In this document: one piece after another, positions 10,256 to 47,428 of the stretch
Layout of the letters: every line of letters begins with the position of its first letter
How positions within the stretch are numbered: the first letter of the stretch is position 1
From: a virus
Lineage: Duplodnaviria > Caudoviricetes
Virus record (IMG/VR): IMGVR_UViG_3300044961_000667
Direction: 5' to 3' (one strand)
DNA: 64,000 nt
Position numbers and translations under genes: made by a program
The notes under the pieces: generated by a model
Told to the model about the DNA's origin: nothing
Database searches by the model: none
Seen by the model: only the letters and a program-made list of their open reading frames with translations

Positions 10256-10901
10256 GGCAGTCCTCGCAGGTCTCGTCGTCGCAGTGCTCGGCACGCAACG
10301 GCAGGTTGATCTTCTCTCGCGGCGTGGCCGCGTCGTACTTCGCCTTCGCCTTCGCGTCCGCAGCGTCGCAGTCGTCGTGCCGGTTGCAGGTGCGCTTCTT
10401 CGGCTTCACCTCCAGCGGGACGATCAAGTTCGTCACCAGCTCCGCCCCGCAGGCCCTGCAGAACGAGGTGCCGTCAGATCGAAGGTACACCTCGTGCTTC
10501 CCCTGCCGCGCCTCGTGCGGACACGGGCTGTCGGGCTGCAGCAACGGCTTCTGCGCCTCCTTCACGAGCCGAGCGAACGTCGGCGTCAGCTCTCCCAGGA
10601 GGAACTTCCTGGCCGAGTAGCAGATGTCCTTGGTGCAGGTCTCCCACGAGCCGTTGCCGTTGGGGCCGTCGTCGTTGTGGTACGCCTGGTGCGTCGTCTG
10701 CGCCATCCACCGCACCATGTCGCGAGCGCCCTGATCCCACGCCGGCGGCGAAGTCTGCAGCAGCCGCTCCATCAGCGCTGGCGCTGGCGACGGCGTGTGG
10801 AGCACCAGCGGGGCCACCTTCACTCCGCCGACGTACACGCCCTGCACCGAGTTCGGGCAGTCAGGCTCGTGCCCAGTCGTCTTGCATCCGCACGGCGTCA
10901 T
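10245..10901 (-). CDS. Cys/His-rich hypothetical protein
   Basis: Several CxxC/H clusters. Confidence 0.5.
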   Translation of the reverse strand: MTPCGCKTTGHEPDCPNSVQGVYVGGVKVAPLVLHTPSPAPALMERLLQTSPPAWDQGARDMVRWMAQTTHQAYHNDDGPNGNGSWETCTKDICYSARKFLLGELTPTFARLVKEAQKPLLQPDSPCPHEARQGKHEVYLRSDGTSFCRACGAELVTNLIVPLEVKPKKRTCNRHDDCDAADAKAKAKYDAATPREKINLPLRAEHCDDETCEDCHGY

Positions 10902-11395
10902 CCGAACCTCCCCATCAAGTACCCGCCGCCCAGCCCCACCATGAAGGCCACGGCCGTCGAGAGCCACGGCAGGTGGCGACGCACCGTCAGCACCGACGGC
11001 GACACCACCTTCGTCACGACGTACTTCTTCCCGTCGTTCAACTGCAGCACGGTGCCCACTGGGACCCACGCCTCCGTGAAGCCGTGGCCCACCGTCGTGA
11101 TCTCCGCCTTCGCCCACGGCCATCTCATGCGTTTTCTCTCTCTCAAAGACGCTGGCGCCGATGCCGCGGCTGGCTGATCAGCTCTCACTCTTGGGGGTTG
11201 GAGCCTGGAGCGCCGCGTTGCGCGGGCAGTACATGCAGGGCTCCGAGGTCGAGACGCAGACGGACACCCGTCCAGGATGCAGCGTCTCACCGCAGGTGCG
11301 GCACTTCTTCTTGCCATTCTTCTTGGCGCCACGGACACCGGTGCCTTCGCAGTCGGTGCAGGTAGCGAGCTGCAGGTGAGGACACTCCATGAACA

Positions 11396-11947
11396 TCAGC
11401 GGGGCTCCCAGTGTGACTCGTTGTCGTCCTTCGTCGTCTTCACGCCGAACTTCGCCTCGCGTTGGGCGATGAGGCCGTCGTACAGCTTCAGAGCCTCGTC
11501 CTTGGTGGGCGGGCGGCCGACGCGCTTGCCGTCACCACGGACGACAGGCGGCTCGCCAACAGGCAGCTGCCCCTTCACGGGGTTGAACAGCATGCAGCGG
11601 TAGAAGCAGCCGCTGTGGCCCTGGTCGAACGAATCCGGCTTGAAGCGACCGCGATCGAAGGGGCAGGTGGCCTGCTTCGGCGGGTCGCGAGGGGAGCTTC
11701 GCCCGGCTTTGACCTGCTCCGGGAAGACGTGATCGTTCACGTCGGGGTAGCTGCGGGCGTCGTCGGTGCACAGGCCCCACGAGGCGTGCGTGTGCTTGTC
11801 GCCGATGGTGTTGCTGTCATCGAGATCGAGCGGCAGCCCAGCAGCGATGCGCCCGCGGATTCGCCGCAGCGTGTCCTGGTAGCGCCCCTCACCCATCTCC
11901 GGGTTGATGGGCGTGTCGAACACCGTGCGGCGCCTCGTGTCTTCCAT
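11396..11947 (-). CDS. Hypothetical protein
   Basis: AAGGAG RBS, ATG 11947. Confidence 0.6.
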   Translation of the reverse strand: MEDTRRRTVFDTPINPEMGEGRYQDTLRRIRGRIAAGLPLDLDDSNTIGDKHTHASWGLCTDDARSYPDVNDHVFPEQVKAGRSSPRDPPKQATCPFDRGRFKPDSFDQGHSGCFYRCMLFNPVKGQLPVGEPPVVRGDGKRVGRPPTKDEALKLYDGLIAQREAKFGVKTTKDDNESHWEPR

Positions 11948-12434
11948 GGACGTCTCCTTGTCTACCCTTTGTCGTGTTTCGTCAAGTGGTCTTGACGCAG
12001 CTTGCGGACGTGCTTGCCCACGGCATTCGTGATGTTCAGCAGCGCGTTCGCCTGGCCTCGGGCCAGGTAGTCGTCGAGACGGCTCTCCAGCTCCCAGCAC
12101 GGGTTGCATCGCTGCGTGCCGTACTGATCGATGGGGATCGTCGCACCGCAGGTGGCGCAGACGAGCGTGGCGCCAGAGCACTCCGGGCACGGGCCTGTCG
12201 GCTGGCCTGGGCCTGCGTCCGGCGGCACCCGCTTCGTGTCGTTGCAGGTGACGCAGGTCACTTGAGCACCGGGAGCGCGATCGACTGGGCGGCGGCATTG
12301 CCGGCAGCCACCAAGAGCGGGGCACCGACGGGACAGAGATCGAACGGATGATCGCGGCACTGCTTGCACACGTCGAGGTGCGCGTGGAACTTCTCGATCT
12401 CCGCCTCAGCCTTCTTCTGCGCTTCATTCATGGA

Positions 12435-14163: not shown

Positions 14164-14205
14164 GTGCTGCCTCCTTGAAGTCCCCATGGGTTTGGGGATT
14201 CTTCA

Positions 14206-14234
14206 AAGCTACCAGCAGCCTACTGGTTCGTCAA
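14206..14234 (-). promoter_or_regulatory. Sigma70-like promoter
   Basis: TTGACG-N17-TAGCTT with TGn extended -10. Confidence 0.6.
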
Positions 14235-14250
14235 GAGGAAAACGACGGGC

Positions 14251-25522: not shown

Positions 25523-25576
25523 TCGCTGCCTCCTGGGTGTCTCCCTGGGTTGGGGAGGTGGATTGAGGATGGAGAG

Positions 25577-25606
25577 AATCTAGCCCAAGTCCTCCGCGTT
25601 CGTCAA
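25577..25606 (-). promoter_or_regulatory. Sigma70-like promoter
   Basis: TTGACG-N18-TAGATT. Confidence 0.55.
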
Positions 25607-26259
25607 GAGATGTGCGGCCCTCCCCTGTCGATTCGCGAACGAATTTCGATCGACATCATCATGCGTCGGGGGGAAGGGGGAGGGGCCCCTGGCGTGCACT
25701 TTGTTGCCTGTGGACAAGTCGGCGTACGGGCCCAAAGGCTTAGAGGCTTTGAGGGTTTGCCCCTGAGGGGCTGTGGAAGACTCTGTGGGAAACGAGACGA
25801 TGGAGGGCGCGCAACTTCCTGCGCCACCTTGGGTGCGGCACAGGGGGTGCGAAAGTGCTGTGGGACGGGTGCTGGTGTACAGGGCAGCGCGACTTCCAGG
25901 GAGGGATGCGCCTTGCTGACGGTGTACCGGTACTACGACAAGCGGGTGAAGACGAAGGGGCCTCTGGTGGAGCGGATCCACCCGTGCGCCTATGGGGAGA
26001 GGTGCAAGTGCTGGGTGGGCGTCTCGGACTCGTGCTTCCCCTTCTGCTGGCACCACGCGGGGCATCCGGAGGGTCGGGGGAACGAAAGGCCCCCCAGGCG
26101 TCCGAAGAAGCGTCCTCCGGGTGGGTCCGGCGGGCCGGCTGGCTCGGGCGGCGTGAATAGGAAACGGAATCTTTTCCGTGCGTCTCCCGGCGGATCAGCC
26201 GAATTCGTCAGCCAGGTCGCCGGGTTACCTGCTGTCGGCCGCGCTGAATAAAACGCGGA

Positions 26260-44996: not shown

Positions 44997-45001
44997 CCAT
45001 G

Positions 45002-45073
45002 AGCGGGTGGCGAGGATCGAACTCGCGCATCCTGGGTTGGAAGCCCAGAGCCTTTCCGCTTGGCTACACCCGC
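45002..45073 (-). tRNA. tRNA-Gly(TCC)
   Basis: Cloverleaf. Confidence 0.9.
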
Positions 45074-45076
45074 ATG

Positions 45077-45147
45077 TACCGCCGCTGGGGATCGAACCCA
45101 GTCCCTCCGCTTAAAAGGCGGTTGCTCTACCCTTGAGCTACGACGGC
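45077..45147 (-). tRNA. tRNA-Lys(TTT)
   Basis: Cloverleaf. Confidence 0.9.
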
Positions 45148-45186
45148 GCGTGGACCTGCGCCGTCGCGTTTCATCTTCGTCTTCAT
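45127..45186 (-). CDS. Mini-ORF MKTKMKRDGAGPRAVVAQG running into tRNA-Lys
   Basis: AAGGAG RBS; three Lys codons in the first six. Confidence 0.45.
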   Translation of the reverse strand: MKTKMKRDGAGPRAVVAQG

Positions 45187-45204
45187 CGTCGTCTCCTTGT
45201 CGAG

Positions 45205-45292
45205 TGGTGGGAAGGCTCGGAGTCGAGCCGAGCTGGGACGCAATGCCACCCGCTTTACAGGCGGGCCACGAGCCCTACGTGTCTACCTTCCC
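45205..45292 (-). tRNA. tRNA-Tyr(GTA), CCA encoded
   Basis: Cloverleaf with long variable arm. Confidence 0.88.
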
Positions 45293-45295
45293 ATG

Positions 45296-45366
45296 AGCGG
45301 CATCCGGGAATCGAACCCGGTTCAGTGGCCTGGCAGACCACGGCCCAACCAATAGACCAATGCCGC
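45296..45366 (-). tRNA. tRNA-Gly(GCC)
   Basis: Cloverleaf. Confidence 0.9.
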
Positions 45367-45448
45367 ATACGGCTTTGTCGCTGACGGCCGCGCAGATCCT
45401 CGTGCGGAATGCACGAAGGACTGAACGTCTGCCGGCGACAGAAGCCAG

Positions 45449-45519
45449 TGGGCCCTGAGGGGATCGAACCCTCTCCTGACGCTTAAGAGGCGCCTGCTCT
45501 ACCCTTGAGCTAAGGACCC
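45449..45519 (-). tRNA. tRNA-Lys(CTT)
   Basis: Cloverleaf. Confidence 0.9.
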
Positions 45520-45570
45520 AGATTCGGCCAGCCCGACTAGACGTCAGACAGGTGGCCGAACTGTCGCTGC

Positions 45571-45589
45571 TATCCAGTTTTCAGAGAAC
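45571..45589 (-). promoter_or_regulatory. rrn boxA-like element
   Basis: GTTCTCTGAAAACTGGATA resembles rRNA-operon GTTCTTTGAAAACTGAATA. Confidence 0.5.
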
Positions 45590-45599
45590 AGAACTGCGA

Positions 45600-45673
45600 A
45601 GCACCAGGTCGGGCTCGAACCGACGACCTGCGGTTTACGAAACCGCTGCTGCTACCTGCTGAGCTACTGGTGC
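45600..45673 (-). tRNA. tRNA-Thr(CGT)
   Basis: Cloverleaf. Confidence 0.88.
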
Positions 45674-45677
45674 ACTG

Positions 45678-45751
45678 CACGGCGAGCAGGAGTCGAACCT
45701 GCAGCGTCGGGTTTTGGAGGCCCGTTCCCTTCCCGTTGGGGACTTCGCCGT
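45678..45751 (-). tRNA. tRNA-Trp(CCA)
   Basis: Loop CTCCAAA. Confidence 0.85.
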
Positions 45752-45812
45752 ATACCGTTGTTCCTTTCCTTTTGACGAAACATCCTCTCGAAGACTGACC
45801 TGCGGTGGTGCA

Positions 45813-45852
45813 GAAAAGCGAAAGGCCGGGACCCTTTTGGGGTGCCCGGCCT
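45813..45852 (-). terminator. Intrinsic terminator upstream of the tRNA array
   Basis: AGGCCGGG-C-ACCC-CAAAA-GGGT-CCCGGCCT followed by TTCGCTTTT. Confidence 0.75.
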
Positions 45853-45879
45853 CCGTGAGCGATCCAATGTGCTACTGGA

Positions 45880-46050
45880 TCAGGTTCTCATGGAGCCGGG
45901 CCGTCGGTGGTCGCTGGTACCCAGATTCTGCTCGGGCTGATAGGCGACCACGCTTTCGACGGACCAAAGGCACGAACGCAAAAACGCCGGTCGAGCGGCC
46001 ATGGCCGCCCCGGCGATTCGCTTCGTCAGCGCTTTGGTTGAGGTCGACAT
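45880..46050 (-). CDS. Putative leader peptide (56 aa)
   Basis: Between promoter and terminator; last codons complementary to the terminator 5' arm. Confidence 0.5.
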   Translation of the reverse strand: MSTSTKALTKRIAGAAMAARPAFLRSCLWSVESVVAYQPEQNLGTSDHRRPGSMRT

Positions 46051-46078
46051 CGAAAGCACGTGCTCCTTGATGTCCAGC

Positions 46079-46108
46079 AGAGTACCCACCTGACGAATTC
46101 GCCGTCAA
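46079..46108 (-). promoter_or_regulatory. Sigma70-like promoter of the tRNA leader
   Basis: TTGACG-N18-TACTCT. Confidence 0.55.
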
Positions 46109-46130
46109 GCACCTGACGACGATTCTTCGA

Positions 46131-47066
46131 TCAGTACCAGCCCGCGGGGTTCAACGTCGGGTTGTTCTCGAACGGGTACTGCTCACCGCCACCCTCGTCG
46201 TCATCCTGCCAACCAGGAGCGCCCTGTTCCATCTCCGGGTCGGACTCGATGCTTCGACGAACTTCCTTCTCCATGAAGTCGGCGATCACCGCCATCATCG
46301 CCTCGTCGTCTTCAGCTCCCTGCATCGCGCTCACGAGCGAGCCCTCGTCCGAGTCGGCCTCGACCAGCATCTGGCCGTGGAGCTGGAACGCCTCGACGAA
46401 GTCGATCTTCTTCAGGAAGCTCTGCCACGCATCCCTCGCGTAGTCGGCGACCTTCTCCTTGAACTTGCCGGTGCCGATGTCTCGACCGCGGTAGAAACCC
46501 TTGAGAAAGGTCCTCGCGATCGACTTCGCGATTCCTCCGGCCACGTCGGAGACCTTCTTCTTCTCCTCGGGAGACGGCTTCTTCCCGGCCGCCGCCCCCT
46601 TGAGCGCCTTGGTCGCTTCCTTGGCTGCTTCGGGATTCTTGGCGACAGCCTTGGCAGCGGCCTTCTTCGCGCGGCCCTTGCCCTTCGCGACCTTCGCCTG
46701 ACCAGGGGCTTTCTTCGGGGCCGGCGCCTCGGCATCACCCTTCGGCTTGTCGACCTTGGTGGCCGGCTGCCCCTTCGGCTTCTTCGCGGAACCACCCTTC
46801 TCGGGCACCTTCTCCCAGTCGCCCTCCTTCGTCTTGACGAAGGTGCCCGCCTTGCGCTTCCGCTTCTCACCCGGCTTGGCGACGTTGGTGCCCTGGCCCT
46901 TGCCGGCGGCAGTCTTCGCCACCGACGGCTTGCCCACCGCGGTTCCACCCTTCTTCTGCAGCTGCGAGATCGGGATGAGCACCGGAGACGTCTTCACGTC
47001 GCGCGGGTACGGGCCCTTCTCAACGAGGGAACGCATCTGCTCCACGAGTGAAGAGAGGCTGCTCAC
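46131..47066 (-). CDS. Lys/Ala-rich protein, possibly head-internal
   Basis: SLVEQMRSLVEK leader; basic low-complexity middle; acidic tail. Confidence 0.65.
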   Translation of the reverse strand: MSSLSSLVEQMRSLVEKGPYPRDVKTSPVLIPISQLQKKGGTAVGKPSVAKTAAGKGQGTNVAKPGEKRKRKAGTFVKTKEGDWEKVPEKGGSAKKPKGQPATKVDKPKGDAEAPAPKKAPGQAKVAKGKGRAKKAAAKAVAKNPEAAKEATKALKGAAAGKKPSPEEKKKVSDVAGGIAKSIARTFLKGFYRGRDIGTGKFKEKVADYARDAWQSFLKKIDFVEAFQLHGQMLVEADSDEGSLVSAMQGAEDDEAMMAVIADFMEKEVRRSIESDPEMEQGAPGWQDDDEGGGEQYPFENNPTLNPAGWY

Positions 47067-47074
47067 GTCGACTC

Positions 47075-47428
47075 CTACGCGCTCTTGCGGGCGCGGAAGA
47101 TCGCGGTGCGCGCCAGCTCGTCCATCCACGATGCGTCCGCGAGCACCGACTGGATCGAATCAGTCAACTGACCCATGTACTCGTTCACGCGAGGCACGGT
47201 GATCTCCTCGGGCCGCCCCTGGTACTCGCGAGCAAGGTGCGCGGCCAGGTGATCGGCGAGCAGCTCTCGCAACATCACGCGGGCGTCTGCCTTCAGCGCC
47301 TCGTTCTCATCGTCGTGGAACGGGTCCTCGTCAGTCTCCCCGGCGTCTTCCACCCCCGCCGACAGGTGATCGAGCGTGGCCTGCATCTCGTCGAGGTCTT
47401 CGAGGATCTTCTCGGCACTGACTCCCAT
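47075..47428 (-). CDS. Acidic hypothetical protein
   Basis: RBS; follows a palindrome. Confidence 0.6.
   Translation of the reverse strand: MGVSAEKILEDLDEMQATLDHLSAGVEDAGETDEDPFHDDENEALKADARVMLRELLADHLAAHLAREYQGRPEEITVPRVNEYMGQLTDSIQSVLADASWMDELARTAIFRARKSA

What the first reader, a model, noticed from the sequence alone, without database searches (positions are those of the whole stretch)
45813..46108. Classical attenuator architecture upstream of the tRNA array
Order: promoter, 56-codon leader ORF, intrinsic terminator, tRNA-Trp and the rest of the array. The last leader codons (GCCCGGCTCC, 45892-45901) are complementary to the terminator 5' arm (GGAGGCCGGGC, 45844-45854, one bulge). A ribosome finishing the ORF would permit termination, and a stalled ribosome would permit antitermination. 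The phage tRNA set may therefore be switched on by translation stress such as tRNA cleavage by host defences.
Basis: partly seen in the sequence, partly recalled or inferred. Interest (0 to 1): 0.8.

Follow-up and report, generated by a model that had tools for sequence, protein, structure and literature searches.

The report
Structured terminator-bearing leader before phage tRNAs
Between the structural genes and the 38-tRNA array of an uncultured 64% GC phage lies a conserved, unusually folded 379-base leader with a likely promoter and two transcription stop signals, so it probably limits how much transcription reaches the tRNA genes, but nothing shows that ribosomes reading a leader peptide operate it.

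Summary
- a promoter-like site (46108-46079)
- a 56-codon ORF (46050-45880)
- a strong hairpin plus U tract, T2 (45851-45812)
- tRNA-Trp 64 nt further on
- a 10-bp pairing (45901-45892 with 45854-45844) that excludes T2

Support differs by element. The promoter and T2 exceed chance. The ORF does not: shuffles give an ORF this long 24-57% of the time. The pairing is borderline, at 2-4% of background.

It lies inside the ORF at codons 12-25 and sits at the tip of a 79-nt rod.

The ORF has weak codon bias, a Shine-Dalgarno 12 nt from the ATG, no homologues and no synonymous variation. Its codons do not match the tRNAs downstream.

The 379-nt gap is the most structured of 65 sampled segments (z = -4.9). 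It varies far less between strains than third codon positions do.

Best reading (0.42): a non-coding leader whose tandem terminators limit transcription into the tRNA array. The ribosome-sensing attenuator stays possible (about 0.15).

This scan has noted codon-matched leader attenuators before tRNA arrays in other phages. This locus lacks that hallmark.

The parts
46131..47066 (-). Upstream protein gene (311 aa as called in metagenomes; 332 aa from the longest start at 47129). It is the last gene of the structural-gene stream before the gap.
   Evidence: One search lists the ORF and one search shows it called as a gene. All 12 differences in the X9 contig and 8 of 9 in L001 fall on third codon positions. 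No homologue exists outside this phage lineage.
46099..46122 (-). Hairpin H0 (10 bp) just after the stop codon. It overlaps the -35 element and has no U tract.
   Evidence: Fold.
46079..46108 (-). Promoter P1: TTGACG (46108-46103), an 18-nt spacer, TACTCT (46084-46079). The predicted start is near 46072.
   Evidence: One of 4 pattern matches in the window where 0.18 are expected; the other 3 are consensus phage promoters. It scores low on the extended consensus matrix.
46087..46119 (-). Direct repeat CGTCAGGTG(+1), two copies 23 nt apart, bracketing the -35 element. It may be a regulator binding site.
   Evidence: family D3. There are only 3 copies in the window, two of them here.
45880..46050 (-). 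56-codon ORF (ATG 46050, TGA 45882-45880), with AAGGAG at 46068-46063. The coding evidence is weak, so translation is unproven.
45960..46038 (-). 79-nt rod-like hairpin (-43.4 kcal/mol). Its tip is terminator T1: core stem 46015-45985, then TTTTTGCGTT at 45984-45975. T1 covers ORF codons 12-25.
   Evidence: The strain variant 46037 C>U changes an amino acid but keeps the helix (C-G to U.G).
45907..45951 (-). Hairpin H1b, closed by GUGGUCGC/GCGACCAC.
   Evidence: pair I5; folds.
45890..45901 (-). 5' strand of the antiterminator helix (ORF codons 50-53).
   Evidence: Pair probabilities of 0.9-1.0 with 45856-45844 while the 3' arm of T2 is not yet made.
45860..45882 (-). Hairpin H2 (9 bp), enclosed by the antiterminator helix. 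Its 5' arm contains the ORF stop codon.
   Evidence: The strain variant 45866 weakens one of its pairs.
45812..45856 (-). Terminator T2: hairpin 45851-45824 and U tract 45823-45812. Bases 45856-45844 are also the 3' strand of the antiterminator helix.
45752..45811 (-). Spacer between T2 and tRNA-Trp. No minus-strand promoter was found in it.
45768..45781 (+). Inverted copy (on the plus strand) of the phage's extended -35 motif, CCTTTTGACGAAAC, inside the spacer. It has no good -10 element.
   Evidence: ninth-best matrix hit in the window.
45677..45751 (-). tRNA-Trp(CCA), first gene of the array.

Best explanation
The 379-nt gap encodes a non-coding, highly structured leader RNA that acts as a termination gate in front of the tRNA array.

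Proposed sequence of events:
1. A sigma-70-type promoter, P1 (46108-46079), fires 23 nt after the last structural gene.
2. Transcripts from P1, and read-through from the upstream operon, meet terminator T1. Stopping there would give an RNA of about 95 nt from P1.
3. Transcripts that pass T1 meet terminator T2 about 160 nt later. Stopping there would give an RNA of about 255 nt.
4. Only polymerases that pass both terminators make the tRNA precursor.
5. At T2, an upstream strand (45901-45890) pairs first with the terminator's 5' arm. T2 must displace this helix to form, which lowers its efficiency and sets the leak rate.

On this reading the gate is set by RNA folding kinetics, possibly together with an unidentified antitermination factor. 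It does not depend on translation of a leader peptide.

Shown: the sequence elements, their rarity in the window, the predicted structures, the strain-level conservation, and the absence of a coding signature.

Inferred: promoter activity, actual termination at T1 and T2, read-through as the source of the tRNA precursor, and the kinetic role of the competing helix.
For: - Promoter: the pattern is found 4 times in the window where 0.18 are expected, and three of those are bona fide consensus promoters.
- Order of elements: elsewhere in this phage a terminator comes before the next promoter, for example at 14188-14250. Here the promoter comes before two terminators.
- Terminators: T1 (-21.8 kcal/mol, U5) and T2 (-23.7) are the strongest and third-strongest minus-strand hairpin-plus-T sites in 64 kb, and they lie 160 nt apart in this one gap.
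- No other promoter: no sigma-70-like promoter lies between T2 and tRNA-Trp or inside the array.
- Structure: the MFE z-score is -4.2 to -4.9. This is the lowest of 65 sampled 379-nt segments, whose mean is -0.5 with sd 1.2. The tRNA-rich segments score -1.9 to -2.5.
- Conservation: the gap shows 2 differences in 379 nt against L001 and 1 against the X9 contig. Third codon positions of neighbouring genes differ at 2.6% and 3.6%, which predicts about 10 and 14 differences. My Poisson arithmetic from those counts gives P about 0.003 and 2e-5.
- Against a protein-coding reading. The one variant inside the ORF changes the peptide but preserves a base pair of the T1 rod.
- Competing helix: it is predicted with probability about 1 before the 3' arm of T2 emerges. 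T2 is predicted with probability about 1 afterwards.
- Weak hint: contigs from RNA libraries bridge T2 into the tRNAs (X9 covers 45132-47300; X18 covers 45577-45830). DNA carry-over cannot be excluded.
Against: - There is no transcript-end data. Promoter activity and termination are predictions only.
- P1 lacks the extended consensus flanks and scores low on a matrix built from the strong promoters.
- The phage may use unrecognised promoter types for the tRNA array, in which case T1 and T2 simply end upstream units.
- A gate with no regulator leaves the purpose of placing a promoter in front of two terminators unexplained.
- The AAGGAG motif, the open frame and the position of the stop codon relative to the antiterminator also fit a ribosome-operated switch.
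- The competing helix is only 2-4% unusual.
- Two relatives at 65-68% protein identity have no comparable locus, so nothing shows the arrangement is selected beyond one lineage.
Confidence: 0.42

Rival explanations
1. One reading: a ribosome-operated leader-peptide attenuator. A ribosome that completes the 56-codon ORF masks 45901-45892, so T2 forms and transcription stops. A ribosome stalled further upstream leaves that strand free to pair with the 5' arm of T2, and the tRNA array is transcribed. The phage tRNA set would then be induced by translation stress.
For: - The promoter, the ORF with an AAGGAG upstream, the antiterminator/terminator overlap and the array all come in the right order.
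- The stop codon lies 9 nt after the antiterminator's 5' strand and 24 nt before the 5' arm of T2. A terminating ribosome would therefore cover the first without touching the second (coordinates).
- The helix forms first co-transcriptionally in silico.
- There is precedent for a long leader ORF that senses general translation inhibition: the 53-aa bmrB leader of B. subtilis has a terminator within its coding region (PMC4191407).
- Unchecked notes from this scan report leader attenuators before tRNA arrays in other phages.
Against: - T1 lies at codons 12-25. Stalls before about codon 10, including at both Lys codons, or a failure to initiate, would favour termination at T1. Stress would then reduce output rather than raise it.
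- The ORF is no longer than chance allows.
- Codon bias is weak.
- The Shine-Dalgarno spacing is 12 or 3 nt, against a typical 5-9 nt.
- The SD and AUG are paired in the nascent 5' hairpin and again in the long rod.
- No regulatory codon run is present, and the codons read by the first tRNA block are if anything under-represented: 0.20 against 0.30 +/- 0.08 in ordinary genes.
- The pairing is only 2-4% unusual.
- No covariation data exist.
Confidence: 0.15
2. A separate small-RNA gene. P1 together with T1 (about 95 nt) or T2 (about 255 nt) makes a stable phage small RNA with its own function in trans. The tRNA array is fed only incidentally by read-through, or from an unrecognised promoter.
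For: - A promoter followed at about 95 nt by a strong terminator gives the usual small-RNA layout: a 5' hairpin, a single-stranded stretch and a terminator hairpin with a U tail.
- The region shows extreme structure and nucleotide-level conservation without a coding signature.
- From memory: phage T4 carries two small stable RNAs of unknown role in its tRNA cluster.
Against: - No Rfam family matches at E up to 1.
- No target or partner is known.
- Conservation extends across the whole 379 nt, including the part between T1 and T2 and the spacer, not only the P1-T1 unit.
- It does not explain how the array is transcribed.
Confidence: 0.2
3. Ordinary operon end. T1 and T2 are tandem terminators that finish the long structural-gene transcript. 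P1 and the alternative pairing are chance matches, and the tRNA array uses a promoter type that was not recognised here.
For: - Almost all genes run the same way, so a strong stop is expected after the structural module.
- Tandem terminators after highly expressed operons are common (general knowledge).
- P1 fits only the minimal promoter pattern.
- The pairing is within 2-4% of chance.
Against: - The expected number of chance promoter-pattern matches inside this gap on this strand is about 0.18 x 379/128000, that is 5e-4 (my arithmetic).
- Simple terminators do not explain the conservation and structure of the full 379 nt.
- No alternative promoter motif was found upstream of tRNA-Trp.
Confidence: 0.13
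4. A real small protein gene of 56-69 aa, as metagenome gene callers annotate it, with T2 as its ordinary terminator.
For: - Gene callers called a 69-aa gene here on two independent contigs.
- The frame is open, AAGGAG lies upstream and a terminator follows.
Against: - The codon score of 0.04 is at the 3rd percentile of coding windows.
- GC by codon position is 0.54/0.61/0.74, against about 0.62/0.45/0.85 for real genes.
- There are no synonymous differences where about 2-4 are expected, and the single difference is non-synonymous.
- No homologue exists among 5.8 billion clusters apart from a 99% identical copy.
- A 79-nt rod ending in a U5 terminator fills codons 5-31.
- The 69-aa form starts at a GTG inside the promoter and has no SD.
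Confidence: 0.07

Closest known systems
bmrB-bmrCD ribosome-mediated transcriptional attenuator of Bacillus subtilis (PMC4191407)
   Same: A promoter-proximal ORF of about 53-56 codons, an intrinsic terminator within or just after it, a competing antiterminator helix, and the idea that any slowing of translation raises read-through.
   Different: - There, translation of the leader was shown to be required. Here nothing shows that the ORF is translated.
- The genes controlled here are tRNAs, not a transporter.
- This locus has two terminators, and the first would punish early stalls.
Classical leader-peptide attenuators of amino-acid operons (trpL, hisL, pheL; textbook, and PMC1183508 for the logic)
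   Same: Mutually exclusive antiterminator and terminator hairpins, with the leader stop codon placed so that a terminating ribosome masks the antiterminator's 5' strand.
   Different: - Those leaders have 14-32 codons with runs of regulatory codons. This one has 56 codons and no codon bias towards the downstream genes.
- No anti-antiterminator partner has been defined here.
- Relatives that would allow a covariation test are lacking.
Phage lambda pR'-tR' module (6S transcript) read through under Q antitermination (recalled from general knowledge)
   Same: A constitutive promoter followed within 100-250 nt by strong intrinsic terminators that block the downstream genes. There are also repeat elements at the promoter that could bind a regulator (46119-46087).
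   Different: - No Q-like gene, Q-binding element or promoter-proximal pause signal was identified.
- The genes downstream here are tRNAs, not late genes.
Codon-matched leader attenuators before phage tRNA arrays, noted by this scan in other genomes (AI notes, unchecked)
   Same: A promoter, then a small ORF, then a terminator with an alternative partner inside the ORF, then a tRNA block in a large phage.
   Different: - Those leaders are described as 23-32 codons spelled from the amino acids of the block behind them.
- This ORF is 56 codons and its composition does not mirror the first block. The array as a whole reads nearly all codons, so the test carries no information at that level.

Membership tests
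Leader-peptide (ribosome-mediated) transcription attenuator | A short ORF in the leader with a working ribosome binding site | tested here: inconclusive
   AAGGAG is present, but it lies 12 nt from the ATG and 3 nt from an in-frame GTG. The typical distance in this phage is 5-9 nt. An open frame of this length arises by chance 24-57% of the time. The SD and AUG are paired in the predicted folds.
Leader-peptide (ribosome-mediated) transcription attenuator | An intrinsic terminator between the leader ORF and the regulated genes | tested here: met
   T2 has a hairpin of -23.7 kcal/mol and a U tract, and lies 64 nt before tRNA-Trp.
Leader-peptide (ribosome-mediated) transcription attenuator | An antiterminator helix that excludes the terminator and whose 5' strand lies where the ribosome decides its fate | tested here: met
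   The helix 45901-45890 with 45856-45844 overlaps the whole 5' arm of T2. Its pair probability is about 1 before the 3' arm is made. Its 5' strand is codons 50-53, three codons before the stop. Statistical support is only 2-4%.
Leader-peptide (ribosome-mediated) transcription attenuator | Regulatory codons in the leader that match the product being controlled | tested here: not met
   Codons read by the first 10-tRNA block make up 0.20 of the ORF, against 0.30 +/- 0.08 in ordinary genes. For the whole array the figures are 0.96 against 0.97, which carries no information.
Leader-peptide (ribosome-mediated) transcription attenuator | Read-through depends on translation of the leader | not testable with these tools
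   This needs reporter fusions or ribosome profiling.
Leader-peptide (ribosome-mediated) transcription attenuator | Conservation or covariation of the alternative helices in relatives | tested here: inconclusive
   Only relatives at 99% identity or more carry the locus, with 3 variable sites in 379 nt. More distant relatives are not syntenic.
Intrinsic (Rho-independent) terminator | A G+C-rich hairpin followed directly by a U-rich tract on the transcribed strand | tested here: met
   T1 is the stem 46015-45985 followed by UUUUUGCGUU. T2 is the stem 45851-45824 followed by UUUCGCUUUUC. Both rank among the three strongest such minus-strand sites in the window. Whether they terminate in vivo was not tested.
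This phage's sigma-70-type promoters (TCTTGACGAAC - 14 nt - TAGNTT) | A TTGACG -35 element, a 17-18 nt spacer, a TANNNT -10 element, and the extended flanks | tested here: inconclusive
   The core pattern is met. The extended flanks are not, and P1 falls outside the top 30 matrix hits.
T-box or other curated cis-regulatory RNA (Rfam 15) | A match to a curated covariance model | tested here: not met
   No family other than tRNA matches 45000-47000 at E up to 1.
Processive antitermination module (lambda Q or N type) | An antiterminator protein gene and its recognition site at the promoter or in the leader | not tested
   The only hint is the direct repeat bracketing the -35 element. No search for an antiterminator gene was made.

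The most novel reading that the evidence does not exclude
A two-checkpoint, translation-sensing attenuator that gates a complete phage translation kit of 38 tRNAs plus a tmRNA. Under this reading a ribosome must follow the polymerase to melt T1. The position of the ribosome when the polymerase reaches T2 then decides between the antiterminator and the terminator. The phage would raise its own tRNA supply only when decoding of the later leader codons is slow, for example after the host's tRNA pool has been damaged.
Probability: 0.13. Interest if true: 0.8.

Novelty: new variant of a known kind. Interest (0 to 1): 0.42.

Why it matters
Large phages carry tRNA arrays that are thought to sustain translation late in infection or after host tRNA-targeting defences have acted. 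How these arrays are switched on is almost unknown. A promoter followed by two strong terminators and a competing helix directly in front of a 38-tRNA array would mean that tRNA supply is controlled at the level of transcription termination. The locus is compact (379 nt) and could be tested directly with reporter fusions and end-mapping. If the switch proved to be ribosome-operated, attenuation logic would extend from amino-acid and resistance genes to tRNA genes themselves. If it is not, the locus is still a clean example of a conserved, highly structured phage leader or small RNA.

Tried and rejected
- Close or distant relatives for covariation. IMG/VR scans with the neighbouring 311/332-aa protein, the T2 sequence and a 325-aa neighbour found nothing. 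A metagenome scan with the C-terminal domain found nothing. An exhaustive search of 1.84 billion representatives returned only the protein itself. The ORF has only a 99% identical twin.
- Two relatives found through the 603-aa structural protein (65% and 68% identity; L003/G001 and L018) have no tRNAs nearby. In G001 the tRNA array follows a ligase-like gene after a 40-nt spacer. They say nothing about this leader.
- The INPHARED phage collection matches only the tRNA-Thr gene.
- No whole genome is held for this window.
- RNA-library contigs. Uncovered parts, such as X18 having no contig between 45831 and 46093, and contig ends are not evidence. The runs are assemblies and could contain DNA.
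- Replication origin or other DNA-level element. Cumulative GC skew shows no turning point near 46 kb, and the gap has no repeat family elsewhere in the window. I dropped this idea.
- T-box, nut-like and boxA-like resemblances seen by eye (a CGCUC motif before T2, the CAAAA loop) have no support from Rfam, and the motifs are too short to mean anything.
- The shared 11-mer TCTGCACCACC at 45814-45804 and 41696-41686 is within chance expectation for 64 kb.
- The built-in promoter/terminator scan missed P1, T1 and T2 because of its strict -10 rule and its stem and loop limits. I used custom scans instead.

Full report
**Setting.** The window is 64% G+C, and nearly all of its genes lie on the minus strand. 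ARAGORN finds 38 tRNA genes and a tmRNA on the minus strand between 45751 and 36894, with tRNA-Trp(CCA) at 45751-45677 first in the direction of transcription. Upstream lies a run of structural-type genes that ends with a protein gene at 47066/47129-46131. Its reality is shown by strain variation: 12 of 12 differences in one contig, and 8 of 9 in another, fall on third codon positions. The finding concerns the 379 nt between that gene and tRNA-Trp (46130-45752).

**Checking the observation.**
- TTGACG (46108-46103), an 18-nt spacer, then TACTCT (46084-46079)
- AAGGAG at 46068-46063
- an ATG ORF of 56 codons from 46050 to the TGA at 45882-45880
- a hairpin at 45851-45824 followed by TTTCGCTTTTC
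- tRNA-Trp 64 nt later

The claimed complementarity is exact. GCCCGGCUCC (45901-45892) pairs with GGAGGCCGGGC (45854-45844) over 10 bp with one bulged G, and it covers the whole 5' arm of the terminator.

**Is it more than chance?**
- *Promoter: yes.* TCTTGACGAA with at most one mismatch occurs 26 times in the window where 3.4 are expected. Most copies lie on the minus strand in front of genes between 6 and 38 kb. With their -10 elements these form a clear phage promoter family, TCTTGACGAAC, about 14 nt, TAGNTT. The stricter pattern TTGACG-N17/18-TANNNT has four matches on both strands where 0.18 are expected. Three are consensus promoters and the fourth is P1. P1 lacks the extended flanks and scores low on a matrix trained on the strong promoters. 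I treat it as a likely but weaker promoter.
- *Terminator: yes.* In a custom scan for hairpins of -14 kcal/mol or better followed by a T-rich tail, T2 (-23.7) is the strongest minus-strand site in the window.
- *ORF: no.* An ATG ORF of at least 56 codons appears in 24% of dinucleotide shuffles of the gap, and in 57% if any start codon is allowed. The same gap holds a 78-codon ORF in another frame and a 118-codon ORF on the other strand.
- *Alternative pairing: borderline.* The best duplex between the 5' arm of T2 and the 100 nt upstream is -25.4 kcal/mol. That is equalled by 4.2% of all 100-nt windows of this phage and by 2.0% of shuffles.

The same scan finds a second terminator-like site, T1, inside the ORF. 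Its stem is 46015-45985 (-21.8 kcal/mol) and UUUUUGCGUU follows directly. T1 is the tip of a 79-nt rod (46038-45960, -43.4 kcal/mol). In longer transcripts the rod extends further, by pairing the start-codon region (46057-46050) with 45959-45952. T1 spans codons 12-22 and its U tract spans codons 23-25. The true order is therefore: promoter, T1, hairpin H1b, antiterminator strand, hairpin H2, T2, a 64-nt spacer, then the tRNAs.

**Is the ORF a gene?** Real genes here have G+C by codon position of about 0.62/0.45/0.85. The ORF has 0.54/0.61/0.74. A codon log-likelihood score trained on 39 long genes gives it 0.04. Coding windows of the same length average 0.57 +/- 0.25 and only 3% score lower, while 11% of non-coding frames score higher. 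Where GGAG precedes a start in this phage it ends 5-9 nt away. Here it ends 12 nt from the ATG, or 3 nt from an in-frame GTG. The 69-aa form called by metagenome pipelines starts inside the promoter and has no SD.

The peptide matches no Pfam or PHROG family. Its only relative among 5.8 billion clusters is a 99% identical copy.

Between strains the ORF has no synonymous difference, where about 2-4 would be expected from neighbouring genes. The single difference (46037, Thr5 to Ile) is non-synonymous, yet it keeps a base pair of the T1 rod (C-G to U.G).

I also applied the hallmark reported by this scan for tRNA-array leaders in other phages (unchecked notes). Codons read by the first ten tRNAs make up 0.20 of the ORF, against 0.30 +/- 0.08 in ordinary genes. 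Array-wide cognate coverage is 0.96 against 0.97, which carries no information. The ORF is therefore not demonstrably coding and not codon-matched. A leader peptide need not look like a gene, however, so this weakens the ribosome model without excluding it.

**Is the RNA special?** The gap folds with z = -4.2 in the tool's 100 shuffles. In my own run z is -4.9, the lowest of 65 minus-strand segments of 379 nt sampled every 1 kb. The background mean is -0.5 with sd 1.2, and the next lowest value is -3.8.

Near-identical phages from two other metagenomes (L001, L002) differ from the window at 86 and 27 positions. Most in-gene differences fall on third codon positions, about 2.6% of those sites, but only 2 of the gap's 379 bases differ. 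A contig in run X9 shows 12 third-position differences in the neighbouring gene (3.6%) and one in the gap. From these counts the gap is significantly more constrained than silent sites: my Poisson arithmetic gives about 0.003 and 2e-5. There is no Rfam match, no repeat of the element elsewhere in the window and no GC-skew turning point.

**Folding the alternatives.**
- *Before the 3' arm of T2 is made.* For a transcript starting at the predicted P1 start (46072) and ending at 45840, the antiterminator helix has pair probabilities of 0.9-1.0.
- *Once the 3' arm is present.* With the transcript ending at 45823 or 45812, T2 has probability about 1 and the antiterminator 0.1 or less.
- *Longer RNAs.* For RNAs that reach tRNA-Trp or begin in the upstream gene, the two states are closer to balance: T2 at 0.70 or 0.34 against the antiterminator at 0.30 or 0.66.
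- *Local energy.* The T2-containing state is about 10 kcal/mol more stable.

This is the pattern of a kinetic competitor. The helix forms first and must be displaced. The trp leader shows the same kind of relation (textbook), so the energetics neither prove nor refute a switch.

**Weighing mechanisms.** A promoter placed in front of two strong terminators is unlike the terminator-then-promoter junctions seen elsewhere in this phage, for example at 14188-14250. No sigma-70-like promoter lies after T2 or inside the array. The array is therefore most simply fed by read-through from P1 and from the upstream operon, which makes T1 and T2 leader terminators.

The ribosome model has the right geometry at T2, but T1 complicates it. 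Without a closely following ribosome T1 should form. A ribosome stalled at the Lys codons 6 or 10 would still leave the T1 core free. General translation stress or loss of tRNA-Lys would then favour stopping at T1 rather than induction. Only stalls between about codons 25 and 45 would give the proposed outcome.

Together with the weak initiation signals and the missing coding and codon signatures, I put the ribosome model at about 0.15. I prefer a non-coding termination gate set by RNA folding, possibly helped by an unidentified factor (0.42). The 9-nt direct repeat that brackets the -35 element could be a regulator binding site.

The other rivals are a separate small-RNA gene from P1 to T1 (0.20), a plain operon end with a chance promoter (0.13) and a real small protein gene (0.07).

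**Expression data.** The phage, or close strains of it, occurs in runs labelled hot-spring, microbial-mat, wastewater and bioreactor, and in several RNA libraries. Only assembled contigs could be laid. One contig from an RNA library spans 45132-47300, and another spans 45577-45830, from the 3' arm of T2 into tRNA-Thr. This is compatible with read-through, but DNA carry-over cannot be excluded and contig ends are not transcript ends.

**Comparison with known systems.** It has a 53-aa leader ORF with a terminator in its coding region, antiterminator and anti-antiterminator helices, and induction by any ribosome-targeting antibiotic (PMC4191407). The locus shares the hairpin logic of classical trp/his-type attenuators, but not their short leaders or regulatory codons. 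The lambda pR'-tR' module (recalled) is the analogue for a factor-dependent reading. My two literature searches returned no paper describing an attenuator in front of a phage tRNA array. Those searches were narrow, so this is not proof that none exists.

**Verdict.** What is really there is a conserved, exceptionally structured leader with a likely promoter and two tandem terminators directly in front of the tRNA array. It is a new variant of a known kind of control, of moderate interest, and directly testable.

Noticed in passing
window 6313-38054, minus strand (e.g. 25606, 15279, 14234, 6320, 21887, 18876): A phage promoter family, (C/T)CTCTTGACGAAC, about 14 nt, TAGNTT or GATGCT. The 10-mer TCTTGACGAA with at most one mismatch occurs 26 times where 3.4 are expected. 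From memory, the -35 and -10 elements resemble the alphaproteobacterial housekeeping consensus TTGACGS...GCTANAWC, which may hint at the host.
   Followed up: partly
window 45768-45781, plus strand: A good copy of the extended -35 motif (CCTTTTGACGAAAC) lies in inverted orientation in the spacer between T2 and tRNA-Trp, with no convincing -10 element. It may be an antisense promoter or a factor binding site.
   Followed up: partly
window 46087-46096 and 46110-46119: A perfect 10-nt direct repeat (CACCTGACGA on the plus strand) with 23-nt spacing brackets the -35 element of P1. The -35 element is itself half of the inverted repeat CGTCA-N6-TGACG.
   Followed up: partly
window 25523-26259: A 737-nt stretch with no convincing ORF. 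It starts with a terminator-like hairpin (26253) and ends with the best consensus promoter in the window (25606). It could hold another non-coding RNA.
   Followed up: no
window 36894-36971 and 37321-37700: A tRNA with anticodon CTA, which ARAGORN labels Pyl and which would read the amber stop codon. Next to it is a tmRNA with the tag ANDNVEAAPMLAAA, at the far end of the array.
   Followed up: no
L017 (G001:C1:12000-27000) 10629-12033: A relative with 65% identity in a 603-aa structural protein (IMG/VR contig of 177 kb) has only 13 tRNAs and a different layout. Its first tRNA (Lys) follows a DNA-ligase-like gene after 40 nt, with no leader.
   Followed up: partly
window 45141-45166: A perfect 10-bp G+C-rich hairpin lies between tRNA-Lys(TTT) and tRNA-Tyr inside the array. 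The built-in scan flagged it as terminator-like on the plus strand.
   Followed up: no
window 46131-47129: The gene upstream of the leader encodes a protein with a long Lys/Ala/Pro-rich central region and an acidic C-terminus. It has no detectable relative in 1.84 billion representative proteins outside this phage lineage.
   Followed up: partly
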